A stretch of DNA of 64,000 nucleotides from Candidatus Nomurabacteria bacterium (GCA_020632445.1 JACKFN010000003.1:17118-81117), one strand, 5' to 3'; counted from the stretch's first letter, positions 21,874-58,750 are shown. Numbers and translations are program-made. Notes: generated from the letters alone by a model not told the origin.

Positions 21874-21989
21874 CTATGACTCGCAGTGCCGGTGAATTGT
21901 CAACCTCAAATTGAGGTTTGTCAGATACAATCTGAACATTTATATATAGCATGTTCTGGCTGAAATGTCAAACGGAAAAAAGTTTAAGC

Positions 21990-22092: not shown

Positions 22093-22096
22093 AAGA

Positions 22097-22927: not shown

Positions 22928-22959
22928 AGAAATGTCTTTGGTTTTGTTTTTATAAAGTA

Positions 22960-23090
22960 TAGCAAAATAGTAACTCAGTTCAAACCTCGGTTCCCAGTAC
23001 AACAATGCAAAAAACAAAAACCGCTTAATACAGCGATTTTTTATTGCAGAAAATATTGAGCCGAGTAACGGAGGATGTTAGAACTGGCAA
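22960..23090. repeat. cassette module copy 4
   Basis: cagttcaaacctcggttcccagtacaacaatgcaaaaaacaaaaaccgcttaatacagcgattttttattgcagaaaatattgagccgagtaacggaggatgttagaactgg. Confidence 0.85.
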
Positions 23091-24133: not shown

Positions 24134-24149
24134 ATACTTATACTTTAGC

Positions 24150-24335
24150 GGAAATGGCTAAGTAGTTCAAACCTCGGTTACGGGTAAAGCAATGCAAAAA
24201 ACAAAAACCGCTTATTACAGCGATTTTTTCTTTTAAAAAAGATTGAGCCGAGTAACGGAGGATGTTAGAACTGAGGATGGGGGATTTAGTAGCTTATTGC
24301 CACTCCTGATAAGTTCACTATGTTCATAAGTTCAT
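24150..24335. repeat. cassette module copy 5
   Basis: cagttcaaacctcggttacgggtaaagcaatgcaaaaaacaaaaaccgcttattacagcgattttttcttttaaaaaagattgagccgagtaacggaggatgttagaactgagg...aagttcactatgttcataagttca (stop codon of next gene inside). Confidence 0.85.
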
Positions 24336-25051
24336 TTTTGAACTTGTTCCAGGTAAGTGGTGAGAATATCTCTAAGTGCATCTATAGTTTTGGCAATGGT
24401 TTCGTCAATCAAAGTGTGGAAGCCTTTGTCGCTAATTTCCTCCCGCATATACTCTTCGATGGCTGCATCTGAGTAAAAAATTGTGTCAACTTTTTTATCT
24501 ATGGTCGAAAAATATGCATATTTAGTTTTTTCACCAAGATTTCTAGTTTTATTCAAAAATGCGTTTTTAAAAGAGTTCTCTAATTTGCGTTCCTTTCTGT
24601 TATAGTGAAAGGAGACTTTGTTTCTGACAGCCTCCAAAGTTAAATTTAGATGAGACTTGTCTTGCCCTTTTGCAATTTTCAGCAGTTCATCCCAGTCAGA
24701 TCGGGTCTTATGAGAGACAGACTGGATAACATCTGAAAAAAGCTTTGTAGAGAATAGTTTACTGTTTGTACTGTCTGTATGTTTTAGGAATTCAAAAAAT
24801 TCATGGAGAATACCCACAAAGTACTTGTTTAGATGAACATTCATACCGCAGTAAGATCCAGAATGAGCGGTTGTTTCAATAGGTTTAGGTTTTCGATAGG
24901 TTGACTGAAATAAGCGGACTATTTTTTTTTGGCGTTGAAGATCATTGTAGACAAAAGCAAGATTGAGAAAAAAAGAGAACACAATATCTCCATCTTTTTT
25001 ATACAACTTTTTTGGATCAGTATTCCTTAACTCTCCTGGAAAATCTTCCAT
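24332..25051 (-). CDS. hypothetical protein (239 aa)
   Basis: Intact ORF; no recognisable motif. Confidence 0.5.
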   Translation of the reverse strand: MEDFPGELRNTDPKKLYKKDGDIVFSFFLNLAFVYNDLQRQKKIVRLFQSTYRKPKPIETTAHSGSYCGMNVHLNKYFVGILHEFFEFLKHTDSTNSKLFSTKLFSDVIQSVSHKTRSDWDELLKIAKGQDKSHLNLTLEAVRNKVSFHYNRKERKLENSFKNAFLNKTRNLGEKTKYAYFSTIDKKVDTIFYSDAAIEEYMREEISDKGFHTLIDETIAKTIDALRDILTTYLEQVQK

Positions 25052-25078
25052 AGTCTACATTTGTATATTTTTAATGTA

Positions 25079-25774
25079 TTATGCTACATTCCAAATACAA
25101 GCGCCGTCTTTTGCCTGTTTTTCAACGAATTGCCAAGTTTTTGCATCGTAATGTGCACTTGATGGATATGGAGGCTTATTATGTGCTTTTTCATCCAGAT
25201 CTTCAGGAGCATTATAAACAGTATTGCCACCAGCAAAAAAGTTCGCGGTGCCGACACTTACAACATGTACGGGCGTTTCTGGATAAGCATTTTTGAGTGC
25301 TCGACTGAGTGTCCCAGATCCTCCCATACACCAAATTTCAGGTGCATCTATCTTTGCTTCTTTGACGACTTCTGTAAGTTTTGATTCAAATGCTGGAAAG
25401 TCGAGACCTATTGGTAAAAAAAGTGCATTGTTCTGCTTGGCATATTCCTGGGCAGTTTTGCTCGCTTCTACTTGTGTGTGTGCTCCTTCGACAATATGGT
25501 AGGTTACATTTGGCATTGCTACCGTCTTTTGAAAAATGTCAGTATCTTTTTTGGGTGACAGGTAAAAGAGGGTGACTTTCTTATTTACTTCTTGTGCGGT
25601 AAGAGCAATGGCGTATGCTGCATGCCCATAGTAATCGCAGGCGTAGACAAGTTCTTCCTCTGGTATGGTATCAATGAGTTTTTTGAATGCTCGTCTTTTG
25701 GTACCTCCTTTATATAGATCGTCGCGTACTACTTGAAATTTTCCTACTTTTTCAATTGTAAAGGCATCGGTCAT
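25079..25774 (-). CDS. hypothetical protein (231 aa)
   Basis: Intact ORF 27 nt upstream of the previous gene (two-gene cassette). Confidence 0.5.
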   Translation of the reverse strand: MTDAFTIEKVGKFQVVRDDLYKGGTKRRAFKKLIDTIPEEELVYACDYYGHAAYAIALTAQEVNKKVTLFYLSPKKDTDIFQKTVAMPNVTYHIVEGAHTQVEASKTAQEYAKQNNALFLPIGLDFPAFESKLTEVVKEAKIDAPEIWCMGGSGTLSRALKNAYPETPVHVVSVGTANFFAGGNTVYNAPEDLDEKAHNKPPYPSSAHYDAKTWQFVEKQAKDGACIWNVA

Positions 25775-25794
25775 AGATATAGGTTATTTGTAGT

Positions 25795-25935
25795 AGAGTA
25801 TAGCAAAATAGCACTTCAGTTCAAACCTTGGTTCCCAGTACAACAATTCAAAAAACAAAAACCGCTTATTACAGCGATTTTTTAATTTGAAAAACGGTGA
25901 GCCGAGTAACGGAGGATGTTAGAACTGAGCAGTGC
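25795..25935. repeat. cassette module copy 6
   Basis: tatagcaaaatagcacttcagttcaaaccttggttcccagtacaacaattcaaaaaacaaaaaccgcttattacagcgattttttaatttgaaaaacggtgagccgagtaacggaggatgttagaactgagc. Confidence 0.85.
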
Positions 25936-25945
25936 AGATGGCAAC

Positions 25946-26851
25946 TTACAATAAACCTCCGACCAATAGCCTAAATTCTTTTTTTGTATTGTAGATTTTT
26001 GTGAGTTTTTCAAAATTTTTATCAGGATCAAGAAGGAGATTCGCGAGTTTATCAACTTCTTTTAACTCTGATTCTGTCATGTTTTCAAAAACCTTGGGGT
26101 TCGAATATTTTGGTCCGTGGTTATAATGAATTTCATTACTCATCAGACTATGAAAATCATAAAAAAGAGACCATAGCACGGGGAGCATACCAAATACATG
26201 TCCTGCATTGTAAAAGTGCTTTGCTGGGATCTTTCCTGAACGAACATCTCGCCAAGCTTGTGCAGGGAAGTCGAATTGACCATTTTTGATATCATAAGGG
26301 TCAACGCTTTTGTCAAAAATTGATAGAGATCCGTCTACGTCGATTGTGACCCAACGTTTTTGTTTTTTATCCCAATATTGATTTATCCAGTGGTCAGTGC
26401 TTACTTTACCAAGAGAACCCATATCAAAATAGTTTGCATGTCCAGCTCTTACTCGGCAAGGAATTCCTTTTGATTTGAGAATTGAGGCCATGAGGATCGA
26501 GGTATATCTACAGGTAAGTATAATTTTATTTTCGGTTTTTCTTTTGAGGGTTAGTCCTTTTTTGTCTCTACGAAAGAGTTCAGCAAGCATCGAAGATGCC
26601 GTTAGTAGGATGTCATCTTCGGGTTGTTTCCACCAAGGAAGCTTTGTCATATCTCCAAAGCGAAGGTCAGCATTGGATCCTGTATTTCCTGCAGCCAGGG
26701 TGGTACGATGAATAATATTTTTACGTACGAGAAGACCAATATCCTCGATGTCATCTGGAAGATTTTTTTTAAGATATTCTTGGTAACATCCAGGATAAGT
26801 GAAGGTGCTAAACTGTTTATAGTGTTTGATAATTTTTTGTGAAATTTCCAT
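25946..26851 (-). CDS. transglutaminase-like cysteine peptidase superfamily protein (tentative)
   Basis: Cys (ILTCRYTS), His (STDHWINQ), Asp (VTIDVDG) spaced as in the transglutaminase-like catalytic triad. Confidence 0.4.
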   Translation of the reverse strand: MEISQKIIKHYKQFSTFTYPGCYQEYLKKNLPDDIEDIGLLVRKNIIHRTTLAAGNTGSNADLRFGDMTKLPWWKQPEDDILLTASSMLAELFRRDKKGLTLKRKTENKIILTCRYTSILMASILKSKGIPCRVRAGHANYFDMGSLGKVSTDHWINQYWDKKQKRWVTIDVDGSLSIFDKSVDPYDIKNGQFDFPAQAWRDVRSGKIPAKHFYNAGHVFGMLPVLWSLFYDFHSLMSNEIHYNHGPKYSNPKVFENMTESELKEVDKLANLLLDPDKNFEKLTKIYNTKKEFRLLVGGLL

Positions 26852-26889
26852 AAAATGACGATATGATTATGTTGTTGATAGTATATCAG

Positions 26890-27070
26890 AGTAATATGGT
26901 ATGTTCCAGTTCAAACCTCGGTTCCCAGTACAACACTACAAAAAACAAAAACCGCTTATTACAGCGATTTTTTAACTTGAAAAACGGGGAGCCGAGTAAC
27001 GGAGGATGTTAGAACTGGGAATGAAAAGTTGGGCTCTTTACTACCACTCCTGAGAAGTGCATGAAGTTCA
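26890..27070. repeat. cassette module copy 7
   Basis: ccagttcaaacctcggttcccagtacaacactacaaaaaacaaaaaccgcttattacagcgattttttaacttgaaaaacggggagccgagtaacggaggatgttagaactggg...gaagtgcatgaagttcataagttcacc (contains stop codon of 27068 gene). Confidence 0.85.
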
Positions 27071-27478
27071 TAAGTTCACCTCAATAGGATATTGATCTCC
27101 AGCACATGGTAAAAGATCTTTTATTGTTGATGTTTGTTCCATACCTAATACTACCTCAGTTTTCAAATTTTTGTTATTTATTTGGTAGATAAATTCACGA
27201 CATCGTCCACAAGGTGGCAAAATGGTGATGTTTCCTTGGTCGTCTTTTTTAGCGGCTACAATTTTTTTGATTTGATATTGGCCTTGGGTGATCATCTGGC
27301 TTACAGCAGTATGTTCAGCACAAAATCCCATGCCTGATATGGTGTCTATACAAACACCTTTGAATACCGTTCCATCCATGGTTTCAAGTGCGCAGCCCAC
27401 ACCACCCATATCAGCATCATCAATACGAATTGGGTGAACTACTTTGAGAGCTTCATTTATAATTTCTTGGTTGGTCAT
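27068..27478 (-). CDS. cytidine/deoxycytidylate deaminase family protein
   Basis: GFCAEHTAV (H/CAE zinc motif) and PCGRCREF (PCxxC zinc motif). Confidence 0.8.
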   Translation of the reverse strand: MTNQEIINEALKVVHPIRIDDADMGGVGCALETMDGTVFKGVCIDTISGMGFCAEHTAVSQMITQGQYQIKKIVAAKKDDQGNITILPPCGRCREFIYQINNKNLKTEVVLGMEQTSTIKDLLPCAGDQYPIEVNL

Positions 27479-47219: not shown

Positions 47220-48066
47220 CTAAGAATCTATTTTGTAAAATTCTTTTACCATCGGGTAAACCTGCTCTAACAGAGATCTGTTTGAGGCGGCAATATAGGA
47301 ATTTTTCCATTTTAATTCGGGCTGAGCATAGTCGAGTTCATTTCCACATATATCGGCTATGCATCCACCAGCTTCTTCGAGTATCACTTGTGGGGCAAGA
47401 GTATCCCATTTGCTCGCGCGTAGGTTAGTATTGATATGAAGTTCTGCTTCACCACAGGCGATTTTTGGAACCTTTATTCCACTATCATGAATACTTTCTT
47501 TTCTTGGCATTTTTTCAACAACAGCGTCAAGTTCACGCTTATCAGATCCGGGGCTTCTGGTAATGATTCTGACTTCATTTAAGTCGGTAAGAGTGCTTAC
47601 ATGTATACGTCTGTAGTTTTCTTCCGTTTTTTCATATGCACCTTGGCCCTTTTGTGCCCAGAAAAGACGTTTTCTCGCTGGGGCGTAGACAACACCAAGA
47701 GTTGGCATACCATTTTCAAGCAATCCTATATGAATCGCGAAACCATCCTTTCCTTTAAGAAAATCTTTTGTACCATCCAGAGGATCAACCATCCAGATTC
47801 TTTTTGAACAGTCCGTAGGAATAGCATCATTTTCTTCAGAGAGGATGAAGTCATTTGGGAATTGTTTTTTGAGTTCATTTCGAATATACTCATCAGATTC
47901 TTTATCGGCGGTGCTTACTGGGTCAAAGTCGTCTGAATTCTTGTACTCGACTGCGATATTTTGTTTGAAGTGCTTGAGAAGAATATCACCCGCGTGGAGT
48001 GCTATATCAATGATTATTCGTAGCTCGTGGGAAGGTTCTGGTTGTTGTATGCCTTGTAGATTCATA
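47220..48066 (-). CDS. inositol monophosphatase / CysQ family phosphatase
   Basis: WMVDPLDGTKDF and EEND motifs; start at MNLQG (upstream extension in the ORF track overlaps the module promoter). Confidence 0.8.
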
Positions 48067-48084
48067 TGAATACAATATACCTTT

Positions 48085-48250
48085 TTTCTTAGAAAAGTTC
48101 TAATCTTGGTAAGAGTATAAAAAAACGTCGCTAAAATTAGCGACGAAATGCTGAGCAGAGGATCGTAAAGGATGTTGGAACGGGAATTCAAAATAGGGAA
48201 GGTTATGAAACTATACCAAGTATATAGGTGGACGTCCCCCATGCGAATTG
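48085..48250. repeat. divergent copy of the cassette module (copy B)
   Basis: aaaaaacgtcgct-aaaatt-agcgacgaaatgctgagcagaggatcgtaaaggatgttggaacgggaattcaaaatagggaaggttatg... Confidence 0.5.
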
Positions 48251-48282
48251 ACTATATTCTTGATTGACTTCCTAAACGATTT

Positions 48283-48735
48283 GTGATAGAATATATGTAT
48301 ATGAACTTCTTTCGTAGGCATCAACTCAAGATTTTCTCAATAGCCCTTCTTGTGGCGCTTGTTTTCTTTTGTAAGGGTGCTTCTTTGAATATGGTGGCCT
48401 ATGGATCACAAATGCATCACGGTGATACTATGAACATGGACCATATGACGGATCAGAATTCTGATTCATCAGCTATGGATTGTTGTGGTACAGCTGCAAG
48501 TCAGGGGCATGATGTGGCCATTTCATTGCCGCTTTTTAGTGGATTCATTGCTTTGCTTGGTGTGGTATTTTTTGTTTCTGTCTTGATAAATTGGAATAGC
48601 TTCGTACGTGCATGCATCTCGCTTAGTCTTCGAGAGAAAATACGATTGAAACGACATAGACACCGCGCAGTCAAACTCTTGTCATATTTCACTACTCTAT
48701 TTCAAGTAGGAATTCTTCATCCAAAAACACACTAG
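48283..48735 (+). CDS. Met/His-rich membrane-anchored putative metal-binding protein
   Basis: MHHGDTMNMDHMTDQ...MDCCGT, TM helix; first gene of metal-efflux cluster. Confidence 0.45.
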   Translation: MIEYMYMNFFRRHQLKIFSIALLVALVFFCKGASLNMVAYGSQMHHGDTMNMDHMTDQNSDSSAMDCCGTAASQGHDVAISLPLFSGFIALLGVVFFVSVLINWNSFVRACISLSLREKIRLKRHRHRAVKLLSYFTTLFQVGILHPKTH

Positions 48736-48787
48736 TTCGTAAATAGCTCTGCTTTGGTGTATTGGAAACAATACTGGCAGAGTTTTT

Positions 48788-50737
48788 TTGTTATTATCTA
48801 TTTATGAATTTAGTATGAATTGGAAAAGAAAGTTACAAACACTTTTCGCTCATGGGGTATATCGTCTGAAAAGACATGAAAAGAGGGACATTGCTACTCT
48901 CATTGTCATTGGAGTACTCCTTGCAGGTGGTGTTGTTTTCGCCAAGGGAATGTTTCTCTCGTCAAGGCAAGTTTCTTCAGATGTAACTACGCAGTACAAG
49001 CGAAGTTACAAGACCGTTCAACCCAAAAAGTTGTCAGACGACAAAATTTTGCTGATCGGTAGTGTACTCTCAAATGAGAGCGCAAGTATTTTTCCACGGC
49101 GTTCTGGAATTGTTGGTGATATTTTGGTTGATATTGGAGATCAAGTACAAAAGGGACAAGTTTTGGCATACTTGCTTCCGGAAGGAGTAGAGAACCAGTC
49201 AAACTTGGAAATACTTACACAAAAAAGTGCTTCTCAAAAAGCATTTGACGACTACCAAAATACGCAGATGGTTGAAGATGCCAATATTGCAAAGATGCAA
49301 CAGAAGCTTGCTGAAATGAAACGTTCATTGCAGTCATTGCGTGATGATAATTATCGTAGTGGTGGAGGGTTGAGATTAGAGAATGAGTCACTTTCGCTCG
49401 CATATAAACAGTTAGCTGTGGCTGAAAAGCAGCTCGAAACGGCTTTGCAAACTCGACAGCCGAGGTTGACGGATGGAAATAACAAGATCAGTCAGGCGCG
49501 CGACTCTGTGCAAGTGGCATTGCAGCATACTTATCAGACAGCAATTGAAGTGGTTACTGGAGGGCAGGGACGGTTTGAAGAAGGTGGAACTCGAATTCTT
49601 TATGAAGCAGACATCAATAGCAGCCTTGGTGTTCTTGATGCAAACATTCGGAATGAAGTAGCTAATCAATTTAATGCAGTACGGTCAATCCTATACGCAT
49701 CAAAGCTCAGTAGTGATGACGATTATTACAGTGCTGCACAAAAAGCTGGGGATCTTTTGGATGCTCTGCAGAGACTAGTGAATGCCTCTGTCGTGAGCAC
49801 ACGCCTCTCTTCAGCGCAGATAAACGATTTGTCGAATAAAATTCACCTCAGTCAGGATAAGTTGTTTACGGCTCATGAAAAGCTGCAAAAGGCGATTGAT
49901 GCCTATCGTGTTCTCGTGGTAGAGATAGATCAAAATATTGCCGTGCTCGAAGAAAAAGTTCTTGGACAAAAGAGCAATGTCGAACTTATGGAGAGCCAAT
50001 GGGAAAAAAGTGGGAGTGAAATTGCTTCAAAGATCGCGGTTATGAATGAAAGTGTAAAGCAGTATGAAAAAGAAATTGAATATGCCAAGGCGCAGGCAAA
50101 ACGAAATGTTGATGCGCAAAAAAATCAATATGCTATCAGTAATGCACAGTACCTCAAAACCGCGGCGCAAAAGGGACACACAGCCATGATTTCACCATTT
50201 GATGGAGTCATTTCTCGAAGAAACATTGAAGTAGGACAGCTTACTATGATGTCAGATGCCGCATTTGAGCTTGTGGACGTGCAGACAACGCTTTCTCAGA
50301 AAGCAAAAAATGAAATTCAATTTGGTCTGCCAGAGGAGTTGCAGTCGGTTCTCTCCGTTGGGGATTTTGTTGACTTTTACTTGCCGGGAGATGAGACCGT
50401 GTGGCATACAGCCGAGGTAACCAGAATGAGCCCGCAGGTTGATCCAGAATTGCATACCTTTACGGTGCAGGCAAAGCTACCGGATGATCTTCGTTTATCA
50501 AATCATAGTAGTGTCCAGGTAAAAGTTATTACAGGAAAGCAAGAGGCCTATGAGGTGGATTCTTCAGCTATCAAAAAAGAAGACGAAAAATTCTATATCT
50601 GGGTACTTGAAAACCCTGAAGCAGAAAAGCCGGTAAAGGTGTATGTAGACGTCATTGAAGAAGATGGGGAATTTGCTCAGATCACGGGTTCTGTAGAGGA
50701 AGGTTCACTGGTGATTCTTAACTATTATGGAAGTTAA
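48788..50737 (+). CDS. RND efflux membrane-fusion (periplasmic adaptor) protein, long coiled-coil type
   Basis: N-terminal TM, biotinyl-lipoyl-like hairpin (GIVGDILVDIGDQVQKGQVLAYL), ~250-aa coiled-coil, C-terminal beta domains; stop abuts RND pump start. Confidence 0.7.
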   Translation: MLLSIYEFSMNWKRKLQTLFAHGVYRLKRHEKRDIATLIVIGVLLAGGVVFAKGMFLSSRQVSSDVTTQYKRSYKTVQPKKLSDDKILLIGSVLSNESASIFPRRSGIVGDILVDIGDQVQKGQVLAYLLPEGVENQSNLEILTQKSASQKAFDDYQNTQMVEDANIAKMQQKLAEMKRSLQSLRDDNYRSGGGLRLENESLSLAYKQLAVAEKQLETALQTRQPRLTDGNNKISQARDSVQVALQHTYQTAIEVVTGGQGRFEEGGTRILYEADINSSLGVLDANIRNEVANQFNAVRSILYASKLSSDDDYYSAAQKAGDLLDALQRLVNASVVSTRLSSAQINDLSNKIHLSQDKLFTAHEKLQKAIDAYRVLVVEIDQNIAVLEEKVLGQKSNVELMESQWEKSGSEIASKIAVMNESVKQYEKEIEYAKAQAKRNVDAQKNQYAISNAQYLKTAAQKGHTAMISPFDGVISRRNIEVGQLTMMSDAAFELVDVQTTLSQKAKNEIQFGLPEELQSVLSVGDFVDFYLPGDETVWHTAEVTRMSPQVDPELHTFTVQAKLPDDLRLSNHSSVQVKVITGKQEAYEVDSSAIKKEDEKFYIWVLENPEAEKPVKVYVDVIEEDGEFAQITGSVEEGSLVILNYYGS

Positions 50738-50739
50738 GT

Positions 50740-53700
50740 ATGATAAACAAGCTTATTAAATGGTTTTTGGACAATCGCTTGGTGACTCTTTTGCTTTTTG
50801 CCATAGTTATGCTTGGAGGAGTGTGGATTTTGCAAAGAACACCTGTTGATGCCATTCCAGATTTGTCAGAAAACCAGGTCATTGTCATGACGCAGTGGCC
50901 GGGACAGAGCCCGCAAAATATTGAAGATCAAGTAACGTATCCACTTACGGTTGCCATGCAGGGACTCGCTGGGGTAAAGGATGTTCGTGCCATGTCACAG
51001 ATGGGGGTATCAATGGTGACGGTCATATTCCAAGATGATATTGATTTGTACTTTGCGCGTGATCGTGTGGTAGAACGGCTCAGTACCGTACGAAAGGTAT
51101 TGCCGGAAGGTGTTATGCCAGAACTTGGTCCTGATGCCACCGGGCTTGGGCAGATCTTTATGTATACTTTGGAAAGTGACAACCATTCGCTTACACAGCT
51201 GCGTAGCATGCAGGATTTCCAGGTTGCGTATGCACTTGGAAGTGTAGACGGAGTTGCTGAAGTTGCATCTATTGGAGGATATGTAAGGACCTATCAGGTC
51301 GTGTTAGATCCTATCAAGCTTGATCAATATGGAGTTCGAATTCAAGATGTGATCACCAGTATAAAGATGGGAAACAATAACGTCTCCGGAAAAGTCGTTG
51401 ATACTGGCGAAAGAGAAATTGCCATTCAAGGGATAGGCTTTTTTGAGAAGGTAGAGGACATCGCGAGCATGGTTATCAAGATCAAGGACGATGGGACGGC
51501 TCTGACCGTGCAGGATATTGGTGATGTCCGAGAATCTGGTGCTTTTCGAAGAGGAATTCTTGCCAGTCAACATGCAGAAAAAGTTGGAGGGGTGGTTGTC
51601 ATGCGGTATGGAGAAAATCCGCTTCAGGTTATTGAGGCAGTGAAAAAAGAAATAGAAAAAGTCCAGAAGGCACTCCCCGAGGGGGTCAAAATAGTGCCGT
51701 TCTACGACAGAACGAGACTGATTGTCAGTGCCATCGACACCATGAAAAGTGTACTGATTCAAGAACTTATCATAACCGGGATTATTTTAGCAATTTTCCT
51801 TGCGAGTTTTGGGGCAACCATCATTACCGCAATTGCGCTTGTGATTGGAGTCGTTATTTCTTTTATTCTCATGTATTTTGGAGGTATTCCTTCGAACATT
51901 ATGAGTTTGGGGGGGATTGCCATTGCTGTGGGAACTATGGTTGATTCAGCAATTGTCGTCATAGAAAACATTTACCGAAAATTGCTTGAAAATAAAGGAG
52001 AAACGTTTGAGGAAAGGCTAAAATTGGTAAAAGAAGCAACGCTTGAGGTTGGAAAGCCGATCGTGTTTGCCATCTTTATCATCATTTTGTCATTTGTTCC
52101 GATCTTTACACTGCAGGGAATGGAGGGGAAACTCTTTTCCCCACTTGCATACACGAATATGTTTGCGATGATTGGAGCGCTCATTACAGCACTGTTTTTG
52201 GTGCCAATACTTGCGCTTTACTTCATGAAAGGAAAACTGAAGCAGGATGAGGAGATAAAGGTTGTTCGCAGGCTGAAAAGTTGGTATGAGCCAATTTTAA
52301 AAAAAGCACTGCTATATAGAAAGGCAACACTGGGAATTATGGTTGGTTTGGTAGCTATTGGTGGGGTGCTTATGACGCAAATTGGGTCTGAGTTTATGCC
52401 ACCACTTGATGAGGGTGCTATTATGTACATGCCAATGACCGTGCCAAATGTATCAGAACGAAAAGCAACAGAGCTTTTACTCCAAACCAATGAGATTATT
52501 GCGCAGTTTCCTGAAGTAGAAACTGTTGTTGGTAAAGCTGGGAGAGCAAATACAGCAACAGACCCTGCACCGCTTGCCATGCTAGAGACATTTGTCACGC
52601 TCAAGCCAAAGTCCGAGTGGAGGGATGGTATGACCAAGTCAACACTTGTCGCTGAGATAAATAGAGCCATTCAGATAGATAAGCTGTGGAATGGATTTAC
52701 ACAGCCAATTATTGGACGCGTAGACATGCTTTCAACGGGGATACGTGCCCAAGTTGGAATAAAGATTTTTGGGAATGATCCGAACACACTAGAGCAGCTC
52801 GCTATTGAGACAGAAAATCTTATGAACCAGGTTCCTGGTGCATCAGGAGTGGCTGCCATTCGTACGACTGGCCTCAAGTATCTTAATGTTGATCTCGATG
52901 AAGGAAAACTCTCTGAGTTCGGGATTCCAAAGATGGATGCTTTGACACTTATCTCTGCAGGAGTTGGAGGAAACATTGCGTCGTACACCATCGAAGGAAG
53001 AGAGCGTTATGGTATAGAATTGCGTCTCAAGCAGGATTTTCGCAGCGATGTCGATGACGTTAAGTCGCTTATGCTCACAGGAAGAAGCGGTAACAGGGTG
53101 CCACTCTCAAGTGTTGCAGACATACGACTTGAAAACGGACCCGCAACCATTAATAGTGAAAACGGTGTTATACGAAGTGCTGTGCAGATGAATGTGGTTG
53201 GAACGGATTTAGGATCTTTTGTAGAAAGTGGTCAAGAGTTCTTGCAAGAGAATTTGGAGCTTCCCGATGGATACTCAGTAGAGTGGAGCGGGCAATACGA
53301 AAACCAGATACGCGCGAAAAAGCGACTATCGATTATTGTCCCTATCGTTATTTTCATCATTTTTTTGGTTCTCTACTTTACGTACAAGGATTTTGGATTG
53401 GTATCCATTGTGATGCTTTCTATACCACTATCTATGGTTGGAGGAATAGTTGCGCTTTTTATTGCCCAGTACAATCTTTCCGTTGCTGTGTGGGTTGGTT
53501 TTATATCGCTCTTTGGAAATGCCGTGGAGACGGGGGTGGTGATTGTCGTCTATTTGGAGAATGCGTATCGAAAACAATTTGGTATGAAACTGATTGATGA
53601 TGAAAATGAGGGTGCATCTAGTGATAGACCGGCGCTTCCTGTTACTAAAGAGGGAATACATGATGCCGTTTTGAAGGGGGCAACTCTTCGTTTGCGACCT

Positions 53701-53898
53701 GTACTGATGACTGCATTTACCTCTGTGATTGGTCTTTTTCCGATGCTTTATGCTACCGGAGTGGGGGCTGAGGTGCAAAAACCACTTGCGATTGTTGTTG
53801 TTGGTGGATTGACGACTTCTGTTGTTTTGACGCTTGTGGTCATTCCAGTGCTTTTTAGCATGCTGCGAGAGTGGCAGATGAAAAATCAAAAGTATTAA
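50740..53898 (+). CDS. RND efflux transporter, heavy-metal (CusA/CzcA-like) family
   Basis: 1052 aa, 12 TM, two large periplasmic loops; N-terminus typical of CusA/CzcA. Confidence 0.85.
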   Translation: MINKLIKWFLDNRLVTLLLFAIVMLGGVWILQRTPVDAIPDLSENQVIVMTQWPGQSPQNIEDQVTYPLTVAMQGLAGVKDVRAMSQMGVSMVTVIFQDDIDLYFARDRVVERLSTVRKVLPEGVMPELGPDATGLGQIFMYTLESDNHSLTQLRSMQDFQVAYALGSVDGVAEVASIGGYVRTYQVVLDPIKLDQYGVRIQDVITSIKMGNNNVSGKVVDTGEREIAIQGIGFFEKVEDIASMVIKIKDDGTALTVQDIGDVRESGAFRRGILASQHAEKVGGVVVMRYGENPLQVIEAVKKEIEKVQKALPEGVKIVPFYDRTRLIVSAIDTMKSVLIQELIITGIILAIFLASFGATIITAIALVIGVVISFILMYFGGIPSNIMSLGGIAIAVGTMVDSAIVVIENIYRKLLENKGETFEERLKLVKEATLEVGKPIVFAIFIIILSFVPIFTLQGMEGKLFSPLAYTNMFAMIGALITALFLVPILALYFMKGKLKQDEEIKVVRRLKSWYEPILKKALLYRKATLGIMVGLVAIGGVLMTQIGSEFMPPLDEGAIMYMPMTVPNVSERKATELLLQTNEIIAQFPEVETVVGKAGRANTATDPAPLAMLETFVTLKPKSEWRDGMTKSTLVAEINRAIQIDKLWNGFTQPIIGRVDMLSTGIRAQVGIKIFGNDPNTLEQLAIETENLMNQVPGASGVAAIRTTGLKYLNVDLDEGKLSEFGIPKMDALTLISAGVGGNIASYTIEGRERYGIELRLKQDFRSDVDDVKSLMLTGRSGNRVPLSSVADIRLENGPATINSENGVIRSAVQMNVVGTDLGSFVESGQEFLQENLELPDGYSVEWSGQYENQIRAKKRLSIIVPIVIFIIFLVLYFTYKDFGLVSIVMLSIPLSMVGGIVALFIAQYNLSVAVWVGFISLFGNAVETGVVIVVYLENAYRKQFGMKLIDDENEGASSDRPALPVTKEGIHDAVLKGATLRLRPVLMTAFTSVIGLFPMLYATGVGAEVQKPLAIVVVGGLTTSVVLTLVVIPVLFSMLREWQMKNQKY

Positions 53899-54028
53899 GT
53901 TACTGCGCCCAAGGCGCATTCGTCTTCGCGAAAAATCTAAAACAAATCATTTATGTTTAACTCATTTGCATATGTAAACTCGTATCAGGCAGTAATGTAT
54001 TTATCTATTTATTTAAAAGACTAGTAAT

Positions 54029-54232
54029 ATGAAAAAAGTAACAACTCTTTCACTTGCAATACTCGCTTTGTTTGGGGTTATGTTTTTTGCGGGTTGTGGA
54101 AAGCAGGAGCCACTTACAGAGCAGCAACAAGCCGAGCAGCATGGTATGACTTTAGAAGAGTATCGTGATACCAAAGAAGCTGCTGCAAGAATGAATATGA
54201 ATGTTGAAGAGCACATGAACATGGATCATTAA
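54029..54232 (+). CDS. small Met/His-rich lipoprotein (putative metal-binding/chaperone)
   Basis: Lipobox FAGC; C-terminal MNMNVEEHMNMDH. Confidence 0.5.
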   Translation: MKKVTTLSLAILALFGVMFFAGCGKQEPLTEQQQAEQHGMTLEEYRDTKEAAARMNMNVEEHMNMDH

Positions 54233-54319
54233 TTTTTAACGAGTAGTGTATAATGAAATAGGAGTTTTATCTTAAACAAAGAGTGAGGGGACTTTTGTCC
54301 CTTCACTTAATCGAACGAT

Positions 54320-56371
54320 ATGACCACACAACACAAGGATAATTGTCATAATCAATCAAAATCGAGTGAGCATCATCACCAAAATGGTGATCACAAAAGT
54401 CACAATAAAGAACATACAGGCAGTGAAAGTTGTCATACCGGCATGGTAGATGAATTTAAAAAACGTTTTTGGATTAGCTTGATACTGACACTGCCTGTAT
54501 TGTTTCTGTCGCCCATGATTAGGGGATTTTTTCATGTGCAAGAAATGTTGACTTTTGCAGGCGACACGTATGTATTATTTTTTCTTGCTACACTTATCTT
54601 TGTATATGGTGGTTGGCCTTTTTTGAGAGGTCTTGTGACAGAGGTGGGTTCAAAAAAACCTGGCATGATGACGCTTATTAGTGTTGCTATCTTGGTGGGA
54701 TTTGCATATAGTGCTGCGGTTGTTTTCGGTTTGCCAGGGAAACTCTTTTTTTGGGAAATAGCCACGCTTATAGACGTCATGCTTTTGGGACATTGGATTG
54801 AAATGCGTTCGGTAGCCGGCGCAAGCAAGGCTCTTGAGGCTTTGGCGGGGCTCGTGCCTTCTCATGCCCATAAACTTCAGGGCACAGAGATCGAGGATGT
54901 TCCTGTAAATGAGCTTCATGTGGATGATGTTGTTTTGGTGCGTCCGGGAGAGAAGATCCCTGTTGATGGAGTTATCATCGAGGGTCAATCTTTTGTGAAT
55001 GAGGCTTTACTCACTGGAGAATCACAGCCTGCATCAAGGGCTGTCGGGGAAAAAGTCATCGGAGGATCTCTCAATGGAGATGGTTCATTGCATGTAAAGA
55101 TTACAAAAGTGGGCAAAGATTCATTTGTATCTCAGGTTATTGAGCTTGTTCGCCAGTCACAGGAAAGTAAATCAAAGATGCAAGATCTTGCATCTCGTGC
55201 TGCATTTTATTTAACTATCATAGCGTTGAGTGTTGGTGTATTCACCATGTTTGTGTGGTTTTATGTAGTAGAACAAAGTTTTGTTTTTGCACTGGAGAGA
55301 ACAGTTACGGTTATGGTAATTACATGTCCACATGCCCTTGGGCTTGCGGTGCCGCTTGTGGTAGCGGTGAGTACATCTCTTGCCGCACAAAGTGGTTTGC
55401 TTATACGCAATAGGGTTGCATTTGAACGGGCAAGGAATTTGCAATGTGTTGTTTTTGACAAAACCGGAACGCTTACTGAAGGAAACTTTGGTATCACCGA
55501 TGTGCGACTTGCAAAAGGAGTAGATATGAGTGAGGAGAAACTTATTACTTTGGCAGCTTCTGTGGAGTCACATTCACAGCATCCAATTGCACATGCCATC
55601 GCTAGCGCCGACAAAAAGAAAGAGAGAGTGACAGAGTTTAAATCTTTTTCAGGAAAGGGGGTACAGGGGGTGATTGATGGTAAGATTGTTCAAGTTATGA
55701 GTCCGGGGTATGTTCGTGAGAAAAAAATAGATCTGCATGGACTCGTTGTTGAAGACCTCATGAAGGAGGGCAAAACGGTAGTATTCGTATTGGTTAATGA
55801 AAATATCGTCGGTGCTTTGGCCCTCGCCGATGTTGTTCGTACACAAGCAAGAGGGGCAATAGAAAGGCTACATTCCATGGGTATTAAAACCATGATGATT
55901 ACTGGTGACAATGAAAAAGTTGCTGCTTGGGTTGCAAAGGAGATTGGACTTGATGATTATTTTTCTGAAGTTTTGCCAGAGCAGAAGGCTCAGAAGATTC
56001 AAGAAATACAAAAACATGGTTTGACAGTGGCTATGGTAGGCGATGGAGTGAACGACGCTCCTGCGCTTGCAGCGGCAGATGTTGGTATTGCTATTGGTGC
56101 CGGGACGGATGTGGCAGTGGAAACGGCGGATATTATTTTGGTCAAAGATAACCCACAAGATGTAGCTGCCATCTTGGGATTGGCTCGAGCGACTTATAGA
56201 AAAATGATACAAAATTTGATTTGGGCCACGGGGTACAATGCGATCGCTATTCCGTTGGCCGCCGGTGTGCTGTACTCTTACGGTGTAGTCATGGGGCCTG
56301 CATTAGGAGCAATTTTGATGTCACTGTCAACGGTAATTGTGGCTATCAATGCCAAGTTTTTGCGTGTTTAG
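54320..56371 (+). CDS. P1B-type heavy-metal ATPase, CopB-like (CPH motif, His-rich N-terminus)
   Basis: His-rich N-terminus (EHHHQNGDHKSHNKEH), ITCPHALGLA (CPH), DKTGTLT, MVGDGVNDAPAL. Confidence 0.9.
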   Translation: MTTQHKDNCHNQSKSSEHHHQNGDHKSHNKEHTGSESCHTGMVDEFKKRFWISLILTLPVLFLSPMIRGFFHVQEMLTFAGDTYVLFFLATLIFVYGGWPFLRGLVTEVGSKKPGMMTLISVAILVGFAYSAAVVFGLPGKLFFWEIATLIDVMLLGHWIEMRSVAGASKALEALAGLVPSHAHKLQGTEIEDVPVNELHVDDVVLVRPGEKIPVDGVIIEGQSFVNEALLTGESQPASRAVGEKVIGGSLNGDGSLHVKITKVGKDSFVSQVIELVRQSQESKSKMQDLASRAAFYLTIIALSVGVFTMFVWFYVVEQSFVFALERTVTVMVITCPHALGLAVPLVVAVSTSLAAQSGLLIRNRVAFERARNLQCVVFDKTGTLTEGNFGITDVRLAKGVDMSEEKLITLAASVESHSQHPIAHAIASADKKKERVTEFKSFSGKGVQGVIDGKIVQVMSPGYVREKKIDLHGLVVEDLMKEGKTVVFVLVNENIVGALALADVVRTQARGAIERLHSMGIKTMMITGDNEKVAAWVAKEIGLDDYFSEVLPEQKAQKIQEIQKHGLTVAMVGDGVNDAPALAAADVGIAIGAGTDVAVETADIILVKDNPQDVAAILGLARATYRKMIQNLIWATGYNAIAIPLAAGVLYSYGVVMGPALGAILMSLSTVIVAINAKFLRV

Positions 56372-56375
56372 ATCA

Positions 56376-56642
56376 TTATTTTGAGATGAGCGTCCAAACT
56401 CCAACCATAATAAACCCAACTCCCGCCAAAAGTTTTAATGTTTTTTCGTCGAGATAATTGGAGATGGTGCTTCCCAAAAGTACGCCGATGGCTGTAGTGG
56501 CTATAAGAGCAAGTGATGCCCCAAGAAAAATAGTTGACTTGGGGTAGTTTTTTTCTGCGGCAAATAAAAGTGTGGCAATTTGCGTTTTGTCTCCAAGCTC
56601 TGCAAGAAAAATGGTAATAAATGTTGTAATGAATATTTTCAT
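56376..56642 (-). CDS. UPF0016/GDT1 (TMEM165) family single-repeat membrane protein
   Basis: 88 aa, ELGDKTQ signature motif, three TM helices. Confidence 0.75.
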   Translation of the reverse strand: MKIFITTFITIFLAELGDKTQIATLLFAAEKNYPKSTIFLGASLALIATTAIGVLLGSTISNYLDEKTLKLLAGVGFIMVGVWTLISK

Positions 56643-56860
56643 AATAGTATCACATAGTTTATGTGTGGATTTCTTTATCGGTCTTTTGCGTTATTATATC
56701 TTATACTCTTAGTTTGTTTATTATATCAGATGTTGATCATCAGTTTGATTTTCATCTCGTCAATAGAAAGAAGTTGTTAAAATGAGCGACGAATTACGGG
56801 GCGAGGGATTGTAGAGGGACTTGAAATTATTGTTTAACTGAGTAATTGTTAATCAAATCA

Positions 56861-57307
56861 CTACTTATACTCCATAATCCAGTCCTTCTTTTTTTTGCCT
56901 ATTTTTACAAAACCGAGTTTTTCATAAAATGTCTGGGCGATTATATTCACTGGGGCGACTTCAAGTCTGATTGGGATGTGTCGTGCATCGGATTCTTTAA
57001 TCAAATCAATCATGATTGCGCTACCAATACCTTTTTTTTGAAACGTTGGTAGAATTTGTATTCCGCCTATGTATATTTGATCAGGTGACCTTACTACTCT
57101 CAGACGGCCTACGTCTGTATTATTCCATCCAATGATTTGTATTTTTTTAGGATCAAACTTTTCGGAATATTCTTGAAATTCCTTATCGAGGTCTAGTTTG
57201 AGCTGTGGTGTATGAGCCTTTCTTACAGGTAGCATTGCCTTTGTAGAAACATCAAATAAAAAGGGAAGATCTGCTTGTGTTGCAGTACGTAAGGTATAGG
57301 GAGTCAT
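56861..57307 (-). CDS. GNAT family N-acetyltransferase
   Basis: IQILPTFQKKGIGSAIM...FYEKLGF. Confidence 0.75.
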   Translation of the reverse strand: MTPYTLRTATQADLPFLFDVSTKAMLPVRKAHTPQLKLDLDKEFQEYSEKFDPKKIQIIGWNNTDVGRLRVVRSPDQIYIGGIQILPTFQKKGIGSAIMIDLIKESDARHIPIRLEVAPVNIIAQTFYEKLGFVKIGKKKKDWIMEYK

Positions 57308-57424
57308 AAGAGAATTAAGTATGGTTCGATTTTAGATAAAGGTGAACACAAAACGTGGTTTAATTAAGGCAGCAATTATGGAACAGGAGGATCGTAGAGG
57401 GTGTGGGAATTCTCGTAAAAAAAG

Positions 57425-58066
57425 CTATAGAGTTTCAATAACTTCTTTTGCAGAAATGTCATAAAGCTTTGCAGCTTTTTGTCCTGTTTTATCTAAATAC
57501 TGTTTCACGAGATAGAATCCCAGAGAGTACCCTGCCCAGCGAGGTATGTTCAGATCCGGATTTCCGAAAAACCATGAAGCATGATCATAAGGAGAGGTCC
57601 AGTATTCTTTTGTTGCAATGGGTTGAAGATTTGCAAGTCCATTTTCAGAAAGGGCTGTGCACCATGGCTGGGGTTTTCCACCGAGTAGCTCCATTTGAAA
57701 GTGATCTGCCAGTCCCTCAGAGATGATTGCCTCACCCAGGGTGTTTCCATAGCCCGGTCCATTCCAGCGAAGACTGTGGTGGTATTCGTGAGCAATCGTC
57801 TTGGGTATTTCAAGTATGAGATTTTCTTTGAAGTTTTTGAAATTTGCATCGAGGGACAGGTAAATAGTATATGCATCTGGTGTATAGCCACCTATTCCTG
57901 TTTCTGGCACAACATTGAGTGGTTCGTCCTTCACAACAACATCGATAGGTATGAGTGGGAGAGTATCTACCATTCTGTTGAAGGTTTCATCAATGCTATT
58001 TATAATAAACTTTTCGTACTCGTTTAAAGCAGAGGATGCATTCAATAAGTGTATTTTATGTTTCAT
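57425..58066 (-). CDS. putative HExxH zinc metallopeptidase-like protein
   Basis: IAHEYHHS (HExxH); start at MKHKIH, downstream of module copy C promoter. Confidence 0.45.
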   Translation of the reverse strand: MKHKIHLLNASSALNEYEKFIINSIDETFNRMVDTLPLIPIDVVVKDEPLNVVPETGIGGYTPDAYTIYLSLDANFKNFKENLILEIPKTIAHEYHHSLRWNGPGYGNTLGEAIISEGLADHFQMELLGGKPQPWCTALSENGLANLQPIATKEYWTSPYDHASWFFGNPDLNIPRWAGYSLGFYLVKQYLDKTGQKAAKLYDISAKEVIETL

Positions 58067-58089
58067 AGAGCATTTCAAATTTTGTATGT

Positions 58090-58290
58090 AGTATAGCAGA
58101 TTAACAGATTGAGTTCGATTCCTACCGCCCACAATAAAAAAATGCCGCTAAAATTAGCGACGAATTACACAGCAGGGGATAGTAGAGGAAGTTGGAACCA
58201 GAATACAGAATAGGGAAGGCTATGTAAGTATACCTAGTGTATAAGTGGGAGGGTGTACCCCCAGGTGGACTCACTATATTTGATTAAAGT
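58090..58290. repeat. divergent copy of the cassette module (copy C)
   Basis: gtatagcagattaacagattgagttcgattcctaccgcccaca...gccgctaaaattagcgacgaattac...ggaagttggaaccagaatacagaatagggaaggctatg... Confidence 0.5.
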
Positions 58291-58721
58291 GCCGATACGA
58301 ATTTTTGCTGAAATGAATAGCCTTTACAAAAAGGCTATTTTGTGTTACAAATTTATTAGACATGAACTTAGGAGCTGAGCATGAGTATTCCGTCATTCAC
58401 GCTGTGGGATCTTCGTCGAGTCGTGAAGGTTGAGGTCCTGCTTCAGGAGCGAGACTTGCAGTTCACACGGACGATGGGACTCAGCTGACCGACTTCAATC
58501 GAGGTCCGTCAGTGGTTCGTCGGTACGGACTTCATGGGCATCAGGGTCATCGTCGGCATGCTGCAGGCTAATACGCGCTTCCGCTTCAGACACGAGGGTT
58601 CGCGTCCTGCACTGGTGCCCGACCTGGGTGCGGACCGAGATTACATTCTGCCCGAGGATAAGTAGGCGCCACCTCCTGGGCTTCGTAATCAATTTTTACT
58701 TGATAGAAATTGTTGGAATTT

Positions 58722-58750
58722 AAAACACCTTTTAGCAGGTGTTTTTGTAA
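58722..58750 (+). terminator. Rho-independent terminator after GC-rich mini-insert
   Basis: aaaacacct-tttagc-aggtgttttt, perfect 6-bp stem + T-run. Confidence 0.55.

What the first reader, a model, noticed from the sequence alone, without database searches (positions are those of the whole stretch)
48085..58290. Degenerate copies of the cassette module dispersed elsewhere, each supplying a promoter and sitting next to compositionally foreign DNA
Copies B (48085-48250) and C (58090-58290) retain the module's parts. These are the hairpin (gtcgct-aaaatt-agcgac / gccgct-aaaatt-agcgac), the tail (gacgaa...aggatgttggaac / ggaagttggaacc), an extended shared tail (aatagggaagg.tatg..tatacc.agt.tata.gtgga) and a minus-strand TATACT -10. 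The -10 feeds the IMPase gene and the HExxH protein gene respectively. Shorter relics (gcgacgaattacggggcgagggattgtagagg at 56775; ggaacaggaggatcgtagagggtgtgggaatt at 57375) lie between the GNAT, GDT1 and HExxH genes. Copy C directly abuts a ~320-bp GC-rich insert. The module is therefore a genome-wide portable terminator/promoter unit, not confined to the array.
Basis: seen in the sequence. Interest (0 to 1): 0.65.

Follow-up and report, generated by a model that had tools for sequence, protein, structure and literature searches.

The report
Repeated gene-junction modules in a Patescibacteria genome
The two dispersed "copies" are real members of a family of about 100-200-base repeats that sit between small accessory genes in tiny-celled (CPR) bacteria, stop one gene's transcript, start the next, and mark places where genes have been slotted in, apparently next to a tryptophan tRNA gene.

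Summary
B (48066-48270) and C (58067-58290) exist as described. They are 83% identical to each other. With the two "relics" (56700-56830, 57308-57412) they form a subfamily that is a sister to the array module, not decayed copies of it.

A covariance model built from the array copies hits B at E~0.003 but leaves C at noise level (E~1.3). All copies share the order stop codon, pyrimidine-rich "tail" (GTTCYAAC.TCC...), terminator hairpin plus T-run, GTTAGAAC/TCGAAC box, 16-17 nt, TATAxT, start codon.

The same tail occurs in several Patescibacteria phyla. Three related genomes have 0, 1 or 3 genes between tRNA-Trp and an integron-integrase-like tyrosine recombinase. In the filled sites a tail replaces the tRNA 3' end in front of the same downstream sequence.

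My best reading is that these are attachment-site-like cassette junctions that also act as terminator and promoter. The terminator and promoter parts are supported. The "next to foreign DNA" claim fails for B. Recombination is inferred, not shown.

The parts
48066..48270 (-). Module B (type 2), upstream of the IMPase/CysQ gene 47220-48065
   Evidence: 83% identical to C. Covariance model from array copies gives E=0.0027. Sits where relative L015 has tRNA-Trp.
48074..48102 (-). B promoter-like pair: TAGAAC box (48097-48102), 17 nt, TATATT (48074-48079); ATG at 48065
   Evidence: Spacing scan, coordinates. The box is below the consensus scan's -35 threshold.
48118..48145 (-). B intrinsic terminator: CGTCGCTAATTTTAGCGACG plus T7
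   Evidence: Terminator scan. Stem covariation across the family.
48153..48181 (-). B tail: GTTCCAACATCCTTTACGATCCTCTGCTC
48182..48256 (-). B extended tail, with an upstream TATAGT and GGGGGACGTC resembling the tRNA-Trp promoter and 5' end of L015; a second promoter-like site TTCGCA-17-TATACT lies at 48247-48219
58067..58290 (-). Module C (type 2), upstream of the DUF2268/HExxH gene 57425-58066
   Evidence: Covariance model only E=1.3.
58090..58118 (-). C promoter-like pair: TCGAAC (58113-58118), 17 nt, TGcTATACT (58090-58095)
58113..58133 (+). tRNA-Trp 3'-end-like fragment GTTCGATTCCTACCGCCCACA; the first 16 nt match L015 tRNA-Trp exactly
   Evidence: blastn-short E=8.5e-4; nhmmer with a 4-tRNA profile E=0.12.
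58135..58161 (-). C intrinsic terminator: GTCGCTAATTTTAGCGGC plus T-run
58170..58198 (-). C tail: GTTCCAACTTCCTCTACTATCCCCTGCTG
56700..56830 (-). Degenerate type-2 module upstream of the GDT1 gene: tail 56798-56827, decayed hairpin 56773-56790, TCAAAC box 56743-56748, 17 nt, TGaTATAAT 56720-56725
   Evidence: B+C profile E=1e-8.
57308..57412 (-). Degenerate type-2 module upstream of the GNAT gene: tail 57380-57410, box GGTTCGATT 57323-57331
   Evidence: B+C profile E=0.012; colinear alignment.
19270..27085 (-). Type-1 array: modules at 19270-19440, 20368-20441 (partial), 21020-21196, 21963-22092, 22953-23089, 24140-24340, 25794-25947 and 26877-27085, separating 8-10 small unrelated genes
   Evidence: A7, the copy folded, is a ~125-nt imperfect palindrome (z=-4.4).
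58382..58723 (+). GC-rich (54-61%) segment beyond C: a plus-strand ORF with an in-frame TGA and no family match

Best explanation
B, C and the two relics are type-2 members of a Patescibacteria-wide family of intergenic junction modules. The array copies are the type-1 members.

Read on the gene strand, a module has four parts:
1. A pyrimidine-rich tail, GTTCYAAC.TCC..., that starts within 0-60 nt of the preceding stop codon.
2. A hairpin plus T-run that terminates the upstream transcript.
3. An octamer box (GTTAGAAC, TCGAAC or TTGAAC) that is an inverted partial copy of the start of the tail.
4. A -10 hexamer 16-17 nt further on, which starts the next gene.

The terminator and the module architecture are shown. 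The promoter is a consensus match only.

Inferred: the module is an attachment-site-like junction left when gene cassettes are inserted by site-specific recombination at the 3' end of tRNA-Trp or at an existing module. The tail takes the place of the tRNA 3' end. The candidate enzyme is a conserved recombinase of the integron-integrase/XerA type. Under this reading, B marks the spot where a relative still has tRNA-Trp, and C heads a small array (HExxH, GNAT, GDT1 genes).
For: **Homology and architecture**
- Colinear alignment of 10 modules from 6 contigs.
- Exact shared 13-mer.
- Covariance model from the array hits B at E=0.0027.
- Reciprocal weak hits of the B+C profile on array copies, same strand and register.

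**Terminator**
- Consensus scans find minus-strand terminators in B, C and 7 array modules.
- In the 10-module type-2 alignment (no array copies), 4 of 8 stem pairs show changes on both sides. 84% of cells are paired, against 21-45% when the partner is slid.

**Promoter**
- Box, 16-17 nt, TATAxT in B, C, the relic upstream of GDT1, and array modules A5-A8.

**Spread**
- The tail occurs in Komeili-, Levyi- and Magasanikbacteria and other Patescibacteria MAGs.
- It is nearly always directly after a stop codon and often occurs several times per locus.

**Junction behaviour**
- Identity between genomes starts or stops exactly at GTTCYAAC or GTTAGAAC.
- The IMPase and DUF2268 genes each keep their own post-box promoter but have different upstream partners in L015, L022, L019 and the window.
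- Array content differs completely between the window and L005 between conserved flanks.

**Empty and filled sites**
- L025: tRNA-Trp, trailer, GTTAGAAC, terminator, recombinase, with no gene between.
- L034: one gene between.
- L015: three genes between.
- In the filled sites a tail replaces the tRNA 3' end in front of the same trailer, which is about 90% identical by my reading of the alignment.

**Recombinase**
- Best NCBIfam match is integron integrase TIGR02249, 214 bits.
- Best solved relative is IntI4, PDB 2A3V, E=4e-42, ahead of XerA.

**tRNA link in the window**
- C holds an exact 16-nt tRNA-Trp 3' fragment.
Against: - No recombination product, circle or excision was observed. Sharp homology ends are expected for any discrete repeat, whatever moves it.
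- The window holds no tyrosine recombinase and no tRNA-Trp.
- The recombinase family looks like a housekeeping gene: more than 5,900 homologs, about 70% identical across phyla. In Paceibacterota and Kerfeldbacteria it is not next to modules or tRNA-Trp.
- By alignment score the tail is no closer to tRNA-Trp than to other tRNA 3' ends. A tRNA-Trp profile does not detect B or C on the gene strand.
- The 231-aa gene shared with L005 has no module at its 3' end in either genome.
- C is not detectable with the array model alone.
- Promoters and terminators are consensus matches without expression data.
Confidence: 0.5

Rival explanations
1. The modules are purely regulatory punctuation. A terminator-plus-promoter intergenic block, originally the region downstream of tRNA-Trp, was copied along with genes by duplication. 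It is homogenised and reshuffled by ordinary homologous recombination between copies. No dedicated recombination site or enzyme is involved.
For: - The terminator and promoter features are the best supported parts.
- Module-to-module identity within the array (up to 89%; consensus) fits gene conversion. The L005 module next to the shared 231-aa gene is, by my reading of the sequences, closer to A5/A6 than to A7, the module at that position in the window.
- No recombinase lies in the window.
Against: - It does not explain why a 13-15-mer tail is conserved across phyla while the hairpin sequence is free to change.
- It does not explain why the box is present in the empty L025 site, where no gene follows it.
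- It does not explain why the tail hugs stop codons even between convergent genes (L006 4347, L008).
Confidence: 0.25
2. The module is a miniature non-autonomous transposon (MITE) like the Correia elements of Neisseria. It would have terminal inverted repeats (CAGTTCTAAC...GTTTGAACTG) and built-in promoter and terminator, and would insert into intergenic DNA.
For: - Sharp ends and terminal inverted repeats.
- The array copy that was folded (A7) is a 125-nt imperfect palindrome.
- Dispersed copies exist.
Against: - No target-site duplication is visible at any copy (read).
- All 12 window copies have the same orientation relative to their genes.
- No case was found of the same gene pair with and without a module. 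Whenever a module is gained or lost, the neighbouring gene changes too.
- No transposase is nearby.
Confidence: 0.1
3. B and C are small RNA genes or decayed tRNA-Trp genes. Each would have its own promoter (TATAGT at 48251-48256 and 58273-58278) and terminator, giving a transcript of about 100-125 nt.
For: - B sits exactly where L015 has tRNA-Trp. It keeps a similar -10 and 5' end (TATAGT..CATGGGGGACGTC against TATAAT..CATGGGCGCGTC) and the same trailer and terminator.
- A minus-strand promoter-like site at 48247-48219 points at the terminator.
- Modest folding z-scores of -2.5 and -2.3.
Against: - ARAGORN, Rfam and a tRNA-Trp profile do not see a tRNA there.
- Consensus folding finds only two small hairpins.
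- In L012, L014 and L019 the same sequence is the 3' untranslated end of protein genes, with no room for a promoter.
Confidence: 0.1
4. The similarity of B and C to the array module is chance resemblance between AT-rich intergenic regions that each happen to carry a terminator.
For: - C scores at noise level with both array-derived models.
- An unrelated terminator at 38248-38284 scores better than B in nhmmer.
Against: - The exact 13-mer lies on the same strand and in the same position relative to the hairpin.
- B is the first non-array hit of the covariance model, over its full length.
- Intermediate family members from other phyla share features of both types.
Confidence: 0.03

Closest known systems
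Integron attC sites and cassette arrays, including CALINs (clusters of attC sites lacking an integrase)
   Same: - Arrays of small, unrelated, co-oriented genes are separated by 60-130-nt imperfect palindromes.
- The palindrome ends read ..YYYAAC and GTTRRR.. (TTCTAAC / GTTAGAA).
- Array content differs between relatives.
- GC-foreign genes sit in some slots.
- In relatives, an IntI-like tyrosine recombinase sits beside a primary insertion site.
   Different: - Module sequence, not only structure, is conserved across phyla.
- Each unit has its own terminator and promoter-like signals.
- The primary site overlaps tRNA-Trp.
- The recombinase lacks the IntI-specific insertion and is convergent with the array, not divergent.
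- No integrase lies near the window's arrays.
Genomic islands integrated at tRNA genes (direct repeats of the tRNA 3' end as attL/attR; tandem accretion)
   Same: - An intact tRNA-Trp lies at one end of the variable slot.
- A tRNA-3'-like tail at the other end is fused to the original downstream flank (L025 against L034 and L015).
- C carries an exact 16-nt tRNA-Trp 3' fragment.
   Different: - The units are about 1 kb and carry no integrase of their own.
- The repeat is only loosely tRNA-like and extends about 90 nt past the tRNA, through the terminator and box.
- Arrays also exist away from any tRNA, as in the window.
Correia elements / NEMIS of Neisseria and similar intergenic MITEs (ERIC, RUP, BOX)
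   Same: They are 100-150-nt intergenic repeats with terminal inverted repeats that supply promoters and terminators or processing sites.
   Different: - No target duplication.
- Strict orientation relative to genes.
- Always tied to changes in gene content.
- Conserved across phyla rather than within one genus.
pdif modules of Acinetobacter plasmids (gene modules bounded by XerC/XerD sites)
   Same: Gene modules are bounded by short conserved sites, plausibly recombined by a host Xer-type enzyme rather than a dedicated mobile-element integrase.
   Different: No compact 11-6-11 dif-like site is recognisable, and the sites here are about 100 nt long and include a terminator.

Membership tests
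Integron (IntI + attI + attC cassette array) | Integron integrase with the IntI-specific additional domain, adjacent to the array | tested here: not met
   - No tyrosine recombinase in the window: tblastn with the L015 enzyme found nothing, and Pfam on the large ORFs found none.
- The relatives' enzyme is 269 aa against 320 for IntI4.
- It matches IntI models in two stretches and scores below the TIGR02249 cut-off (214 against 265).
Integron (IntI + attI + attC cassette array) | attC: a 55-140-nt imperfect palindrome bounded by RYYYAAC and GTTRRRY | tested here: inconclusive
   - The one type-1 module folded (A7) forms a 125-nt imperfect hairpin, z=-4.4.
- The ends TTCTAAC and GTTTGAA / GTTAGAA match 5-6 of 7 consensus positions.
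- B and C fold weakly, z=-1.4 to -2.0.
Integron (IntI + attI + attC cassette array) | Extrahelical bases and unpaired central spacer, as scored by the IntegronFinder attC covariance model | not testable with these tools
   The attC model is not in Rfam and IntegronFinder is not available. By eye there is a 2-3-nt bulge on the tail arm.
Integron (IntI + attI + attC cassette array) | Cassettes are co-oriented, mostly promoterless single ORFs | tested here: not met
   Co-orientation holds. However, most units carry their own box/-10 pair and a terminator, and some hold two genes.
Integron (IntI + attI + attC cassette array) | Cassette content varies between close relatives at a fixed platform | tested here: met
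   - Window against L005, between the 231-aa and 421-aa genes.
- 0, 1 or 3 genes between tRNA-Trp and the recombinase in L025, L034 and L015.
tRNA-targeted integrative island | Intact tRNA gene at one boundary | tested here: inconclusive
   Met in relatives L015, L022 and L034. Not met in the window: only tRNA-Thr is present, and B and C are not tRNAs.
tRNA-targeted integrative island | The other boundary carries a near-identical copy of the tRNA 3' segment | tested here: not met
   - The tail is only loosely tRNA-like and not specifically Trp-like.
- In L034 and L022 the tail does share TCCACG...CCTG with that genome's own tRNA-Trp.
- The exact 16-mer in C is in inverted orientation.
tRNA-targeted integrative island | Integrase encoded inside the inserted element | tested here: not met
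   The recombinase lies outside the slot, at an orthologous position in the empty and filled genomes.
MITE / Correia-like element | Terminal inverted repeats plus flanking target-site duplication | tested here: not met
   Inverted ends are present. No duplication was seen at any of the type-1 or type-2 copies inspected.
Xer/dif-bounded modules | Compact dif-like site of about 28 bp (two 11-bp arms and a 6-8-bp spacer) | tested here: not met
   No such palindrome was found in the tail or box on inspection. This was a check by eye only.
Any Rfam RNA family | Match to a curated covariance model | tested here: not met
   Nothing at the gathering threshold over the modules. Only chance-level hits at lax thresholds.

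The most novel reading that the evidence does not exclude
Patescibacteria may carry an integron-like gene-capture system that has not been described.
- Cassettes would end in a pseudo-tRNA tail, a hairpin and a GTTAGAAC site.
- They would insert at the 3' end of tRNA-Trp, or at resident copies of that site.
- The enzyme would be a conserved IntI/XerA-like recombinase that lacks the IntI insertion.
- Each cassette would bring its own promoter and terminator.
The window's arrays, B and C would be products of this system.
Probability: 0.3. Interest if true: 0.85.

Novelty: new variant of a known kind. Interest (0 to 1): 0.65.

Why it matters
Patescibacteria have tiny genomes, and little is known about how they gain accessory genes. 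A conserved junction element would give a concrete, testable route for gene capture in this radiation. The element marks variable gene slots, some holding clearly foreign GC-rich genes, and in three related genomes (L025, L034, L015) it is tied to tRNA-Trp and an integron-integrase-like enzyme. It would also supply a sequence tag for finding accessory-gene arrays in metagenomes. If confirmed, it would extend integron-like logic to a site that overlaps a tRNA gene and to cassettes that are transcriptionally self-contained. If only the regulatory reading holds, the modules are still a compact, reusable terminator-promoter unit whose conserved tail remains unexplained.

Tried and rejected
- **Known RNA family:** Rfam finds nothing at the modules, at gathering or lax thresholds.
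- **Array-only sequence profile:** too weak to settle membership (B E=0.063, C missed). It was replaced by a covariance model and by the reciprocal B+C profile.
- **B and C as full tRNA-Trp pseudogenes:** a tRNA-Trp profile finds only the inverted 18-nt piece in C. ARAGORN finds nothing. Alignment scores against 12 tRNA 3' ends are not Trp-specific.
- **Small plus-strand peptide or Shine-Dalgarno reading of GGAGGATG:** the spacing is zero and the ORFs are not conserved between copies (read).
- **B and C as a cloverleaf or other conserved RNA fold:** consensus folding gives only two hairpins.
- **Dedicated integrase next to all arrays:** none in the window or in the other short loci. Recombinase homologs in Paceibacterota and Kerfeldbacteria have no modules nearby.
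- **Phage or plasmid origin:** no real hits in viral contigs, PLSDB plasmids or phage records.
- **GC-rich segment next to C:** no Pfam family and no similarity to the other GC-rich pieces.
- **Arm-pairing covariation:** the tail and box vary too little for a covariation test.
- **Literature:** searches for the motif, for integrons or attC in Patescibacteria, and for tRNA-Trp integration found nothing relevant.

Full report
**Setting**

The window is from a Patescibacteria (CPR) genome.
- Proteins identical to its IMPase and HExxH/DUF2268 genes are recorded at NCBI under "Candidatus Nomurabacteria bacterium", on a 147,920-bp contig.
- The closest genome-collection hit for the array module is a Candidatus Magasanikbacteria contig, L005.
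A metal-efflux operon lies on the plus strand at 48283-56371.

**The array module (type 1)**

Seven full copies and one partial copy lie between 19270 and 27085. They separate small unrelated minus-strand genes: HIT, a membrane protein, a GC-rich ClpP-like gene, SET plus racemase, and others.

Read on the gene strand, each copy has this order:
1. Stop codon.
2. CAGTTCTAACATCCTCCGTTACTCGGCTC.
3. A weak hairpin with a T-run.
4. GGTTTGAACTG.
5. 16-17 nt, then TATACT, then the next gene.

The terminator scan finds seven of them. The copy that was folded (A7) forms a 125-nt imperfect palindrome, with z=-4.4 on the gene strand.

**Checking B, C and the relics**

- The hairpins are minus-strand terminators.
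- The 13-mer AGGATGTTRGAAC is exact in six array copies and in B, and has one mismatch in C. All are on one strand.
- B and C are 83% identical over 115 nt and align over about 180 nt.

- An nhmmer profile of the seven array copies gives B only E=0.063 and misses C and the relics.
- A covariance model built from nine type-1 copies, run without filters, puts B first among non-array hits (26.9 bits, E=0.0027, full length). C is left at E=1.3.
- A profile of B+C finds the relic at 56741-56825 at E=1e-8. Its next hits are array copies and the second relic, all in the same strand and register (E=0.008-0.2).

In gene-strand orientation B, C and both relics align colinearly from tail to start codon. 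They are therefore a sister subfamily (type 2), not worn-down copies of type 1. The stretch 56376-58290 is a second small array: C, HExxH gene, relic, GNAT gene, relic, GDT1 gene.

**Terminator and promoter**

Across ten type-2 modules from six contigs the hairpin sequence changes but pairing is kept.
- 4 of 8 pairs have changes on both sides.
- 84% of cells are paired, against 21-45% for slid controls.

A T(T/C/A)(G/A)AAC box sits 16-17 nt before a TATAxT hexamer in these copies:
- B: TAGAAC-17-TATATT, 9 nt before the ATG.
- C: TCGAAC-17-TGcTATACT.
- The relic upstream of GDT1.
- Array modules A5 to A8.

These are consensus matches only. The TATACT inside B's extended tail (48219-48224) lies upstream of the terminator and cannot serve the IMPase gene.

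**Composition**

B's neighbours are 40-44% GC, the same as core genes such as BipA and ABC-F. The "foreign DNA" claim therefore fails for B.

A 54-61% GC segment (58382-58723) starts about 90 nt beyond C. It is a plus-strand ORF with an in-frame TGA and no family match. One array cassette, the ClpP-like gene, is 55.8% GC.

**Distribution**

A genome-collection scan for the type-1 tail found it in Komeilibacteria, Levyibacteriota, Magasanikbacteria and other Patescibacteria MAGs. It also hit low-GC MAGs labelled Gammaproteobacteria or Acholeplasmataceae.
- The tail is nearly always directly after the stop codon of a same-strand gene.
- It often occurs several times per locus, for example five times in L006.

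A metagenome scan for the type-2 tail found L014 (from a 506-kb contig) and L012, where two copies flank one gene. I found nothing relevant in Rfam, phage, plasmid or viral collections, or in the literature.

**Junction behaviour**

Pairwise alignments show identity switching on or off exactly at the start of the tail or at the end of the box.
- The IMPase gene keeps its own post-box promoter in the window and in L015.
- The DUF2268 gene keeps its own in the window, L019 and L022.
- What lies upstream differs: tRNA-Trp, another gene plus a module, or B/C.
- Between the shared 231-aa and 421-aa genes, the window and L005 hold entirely different genes.

**The tRNA-Trp link**

In L015 (IMPase 71% identical) a genuine tRNA-Trp sits exactly where B sits. 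It is followed by a homologous terminator and a GTTAGAAC box. L022 has rpmG, tRNA-Trp, the same terminator and box, then DUF2268. C carries an exact 16-nt tRNA-Trp 3' fragment on the plus strand (58113-58128, E=8.5e-4).

Three related genomes share a tyrosine recombinase; the L025 and L034 enzymes are each 84% identical to the L015 one. Together they form a series:
- **L025:** tRNA-Trp, a trailer, AAGTTAGAAC, a terminator and the recombinase stop codon, all within 87 nt and with no gene between.
- **L034:** one gene between them.
- **L015:** three genes and two internal modules between them.

In the filled sites the same trailer-box-terminator-recombinase block is preceded by a tail instead of the tRNA 3' end. 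The block is about 90% identical by my reading of the alignment. The tRNA itself is followed by the type-2 hairpin and box. This is the pattern expected for insertion at the tRNA 3' end. On that reading, an internal module is the junction between two successive insertions.

The recombinase's best family match is integron integrase (TIGR02249, 214 bits, below the 265 cut-off). Its best solved relative is IntI4, PDB 2A3V (E=4e-42), ahead of XerA. It is 50 residues shorter and lacks the IntI-specific segment. One search supports this, but it uses a sequence I entered by hand.

**Limits**

- No recombination event was observed.
- Sharp repeat ends do not by themselves identify a mechanism.
- The window has neither tRNA-Trp nor a tyrosine recombinase.
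- The recombinase family is very widespread and about 70% conserved across phyla, like a housekeeping Xer. In other lineages it is not next to modules.
- By score the tail is only generically tRNA-like. B and C are not detectable as tRNA-Trp on the gene strand.

**Verdict**

The interpretation as a portable terminator/promoter unit is partly right.

The best current reading, at about 50% confidence, is that these are attachment-site-like cassette junctions related to the tRNA-Trp 3' flank that double as terminator and promoter. The main rival is a purely regulatory block spread by duplication and homologous recombination.

The element fails several defining tests for integrons, for tRNA-targeted islands and for MITEs. 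I therefore file it as a new variant of a known kind, not as a member of any of them.

Noticed in passing
window 35227-36958: A large serine recombinase ORF (Resolvase + Recombinase + zinc ribbon; 35227-36954, plus strand) overlaps at its 3' end the only tRNA in the window, tRNA-Thr(GGT), at 36885-36958 on the minus strand. This looks like an integrated element at tRNA-Thr.
   Followed up: no
window 30907-31020 (-): A strong match to the LOOT RNA family (RF03000, 81 bits) lies just upstream of a zinc-ribbon/trypsin-like gene at 29604-30926.
   Followed up: no
window 3000-9200: A 57-72% GC block sits in a roughly 41% GC genome. It encodes two large Cys/Asp-rich proteins with thrombospondin type-3 repeats (3426-5219, 5570-8248). 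It is either foreign DNA or a chimeric assembly.
   Followed up: no
window 58382-58723 (+): A GC-rich (54-61%) ORF with a Shine-Dalgarno sequence and ATG at 58382 and an in-frame TGA. It has no Pfam family and no similarity to other GC-rich pieces, and it follows a hairpin at 58317-58340.
   Followed up: partly
window 24277-24340, 27021-27085, 21134-21196, 19407-19450; L005 872-935: Four or five type-1 modules carry an optional extra segment of about 65 nt beyond the tail, containing three direct GTTCA repeats (aagttcactatgttcataagttca). The other modules lack it. It differs from the B/C extended tail.
   Followed up: no
L015 13040-13580 and 14222-14716; L025 9188-9637 and 11040-11200: GC-rich (about 57-65%) genes or segments recur right next to the recombinase/tRNA-Trp slot in low-GC relatives. 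None has a family match.
   Followed up: partly
window 25897-25925 vs 36885-36910: The type-1 tail ends in CGGCTCAC, the same as the 3' end plus first trailer bases of the window's own tRNA-Thr, and starts with CCAGTTC like its T-arm. It gave the best alignment score among 12 tRNAs but is not statistically secure.
   Followed up: partly
L012 421-465 and 3031-3122: A different intergenic repeat (gcctcgagggcgttgcacaa...ttgcattgtgcgatgaccgt) occurs after two genes in this metagenome contig.
   Followed up: no
window 38240-38290: A bidirectional terminator between the YibE/F and Fur genes (aaaaaaaccgcttaaagcggtttttt) resembles the type-1 hairpin. It scores better than B in the array nhmmer search, which warns that hairpin similarity alone is not diagnostic.
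   Followed up: yes
window 47220-48242 (-): The mechanical ORF list extends the IMPase frame 59 codons upstream, right through module B. Pfam and homologs support the ATG at 48065, so the extension is probably spurious.
   Followed up: yes
L032 4812-5000: In a more distant Parcubacteria genome the DUF2268 homolog lies directly downstream of a tRNA gene (tRNA-His) plus terminator, with no recognisable module.
   Followed up: partly
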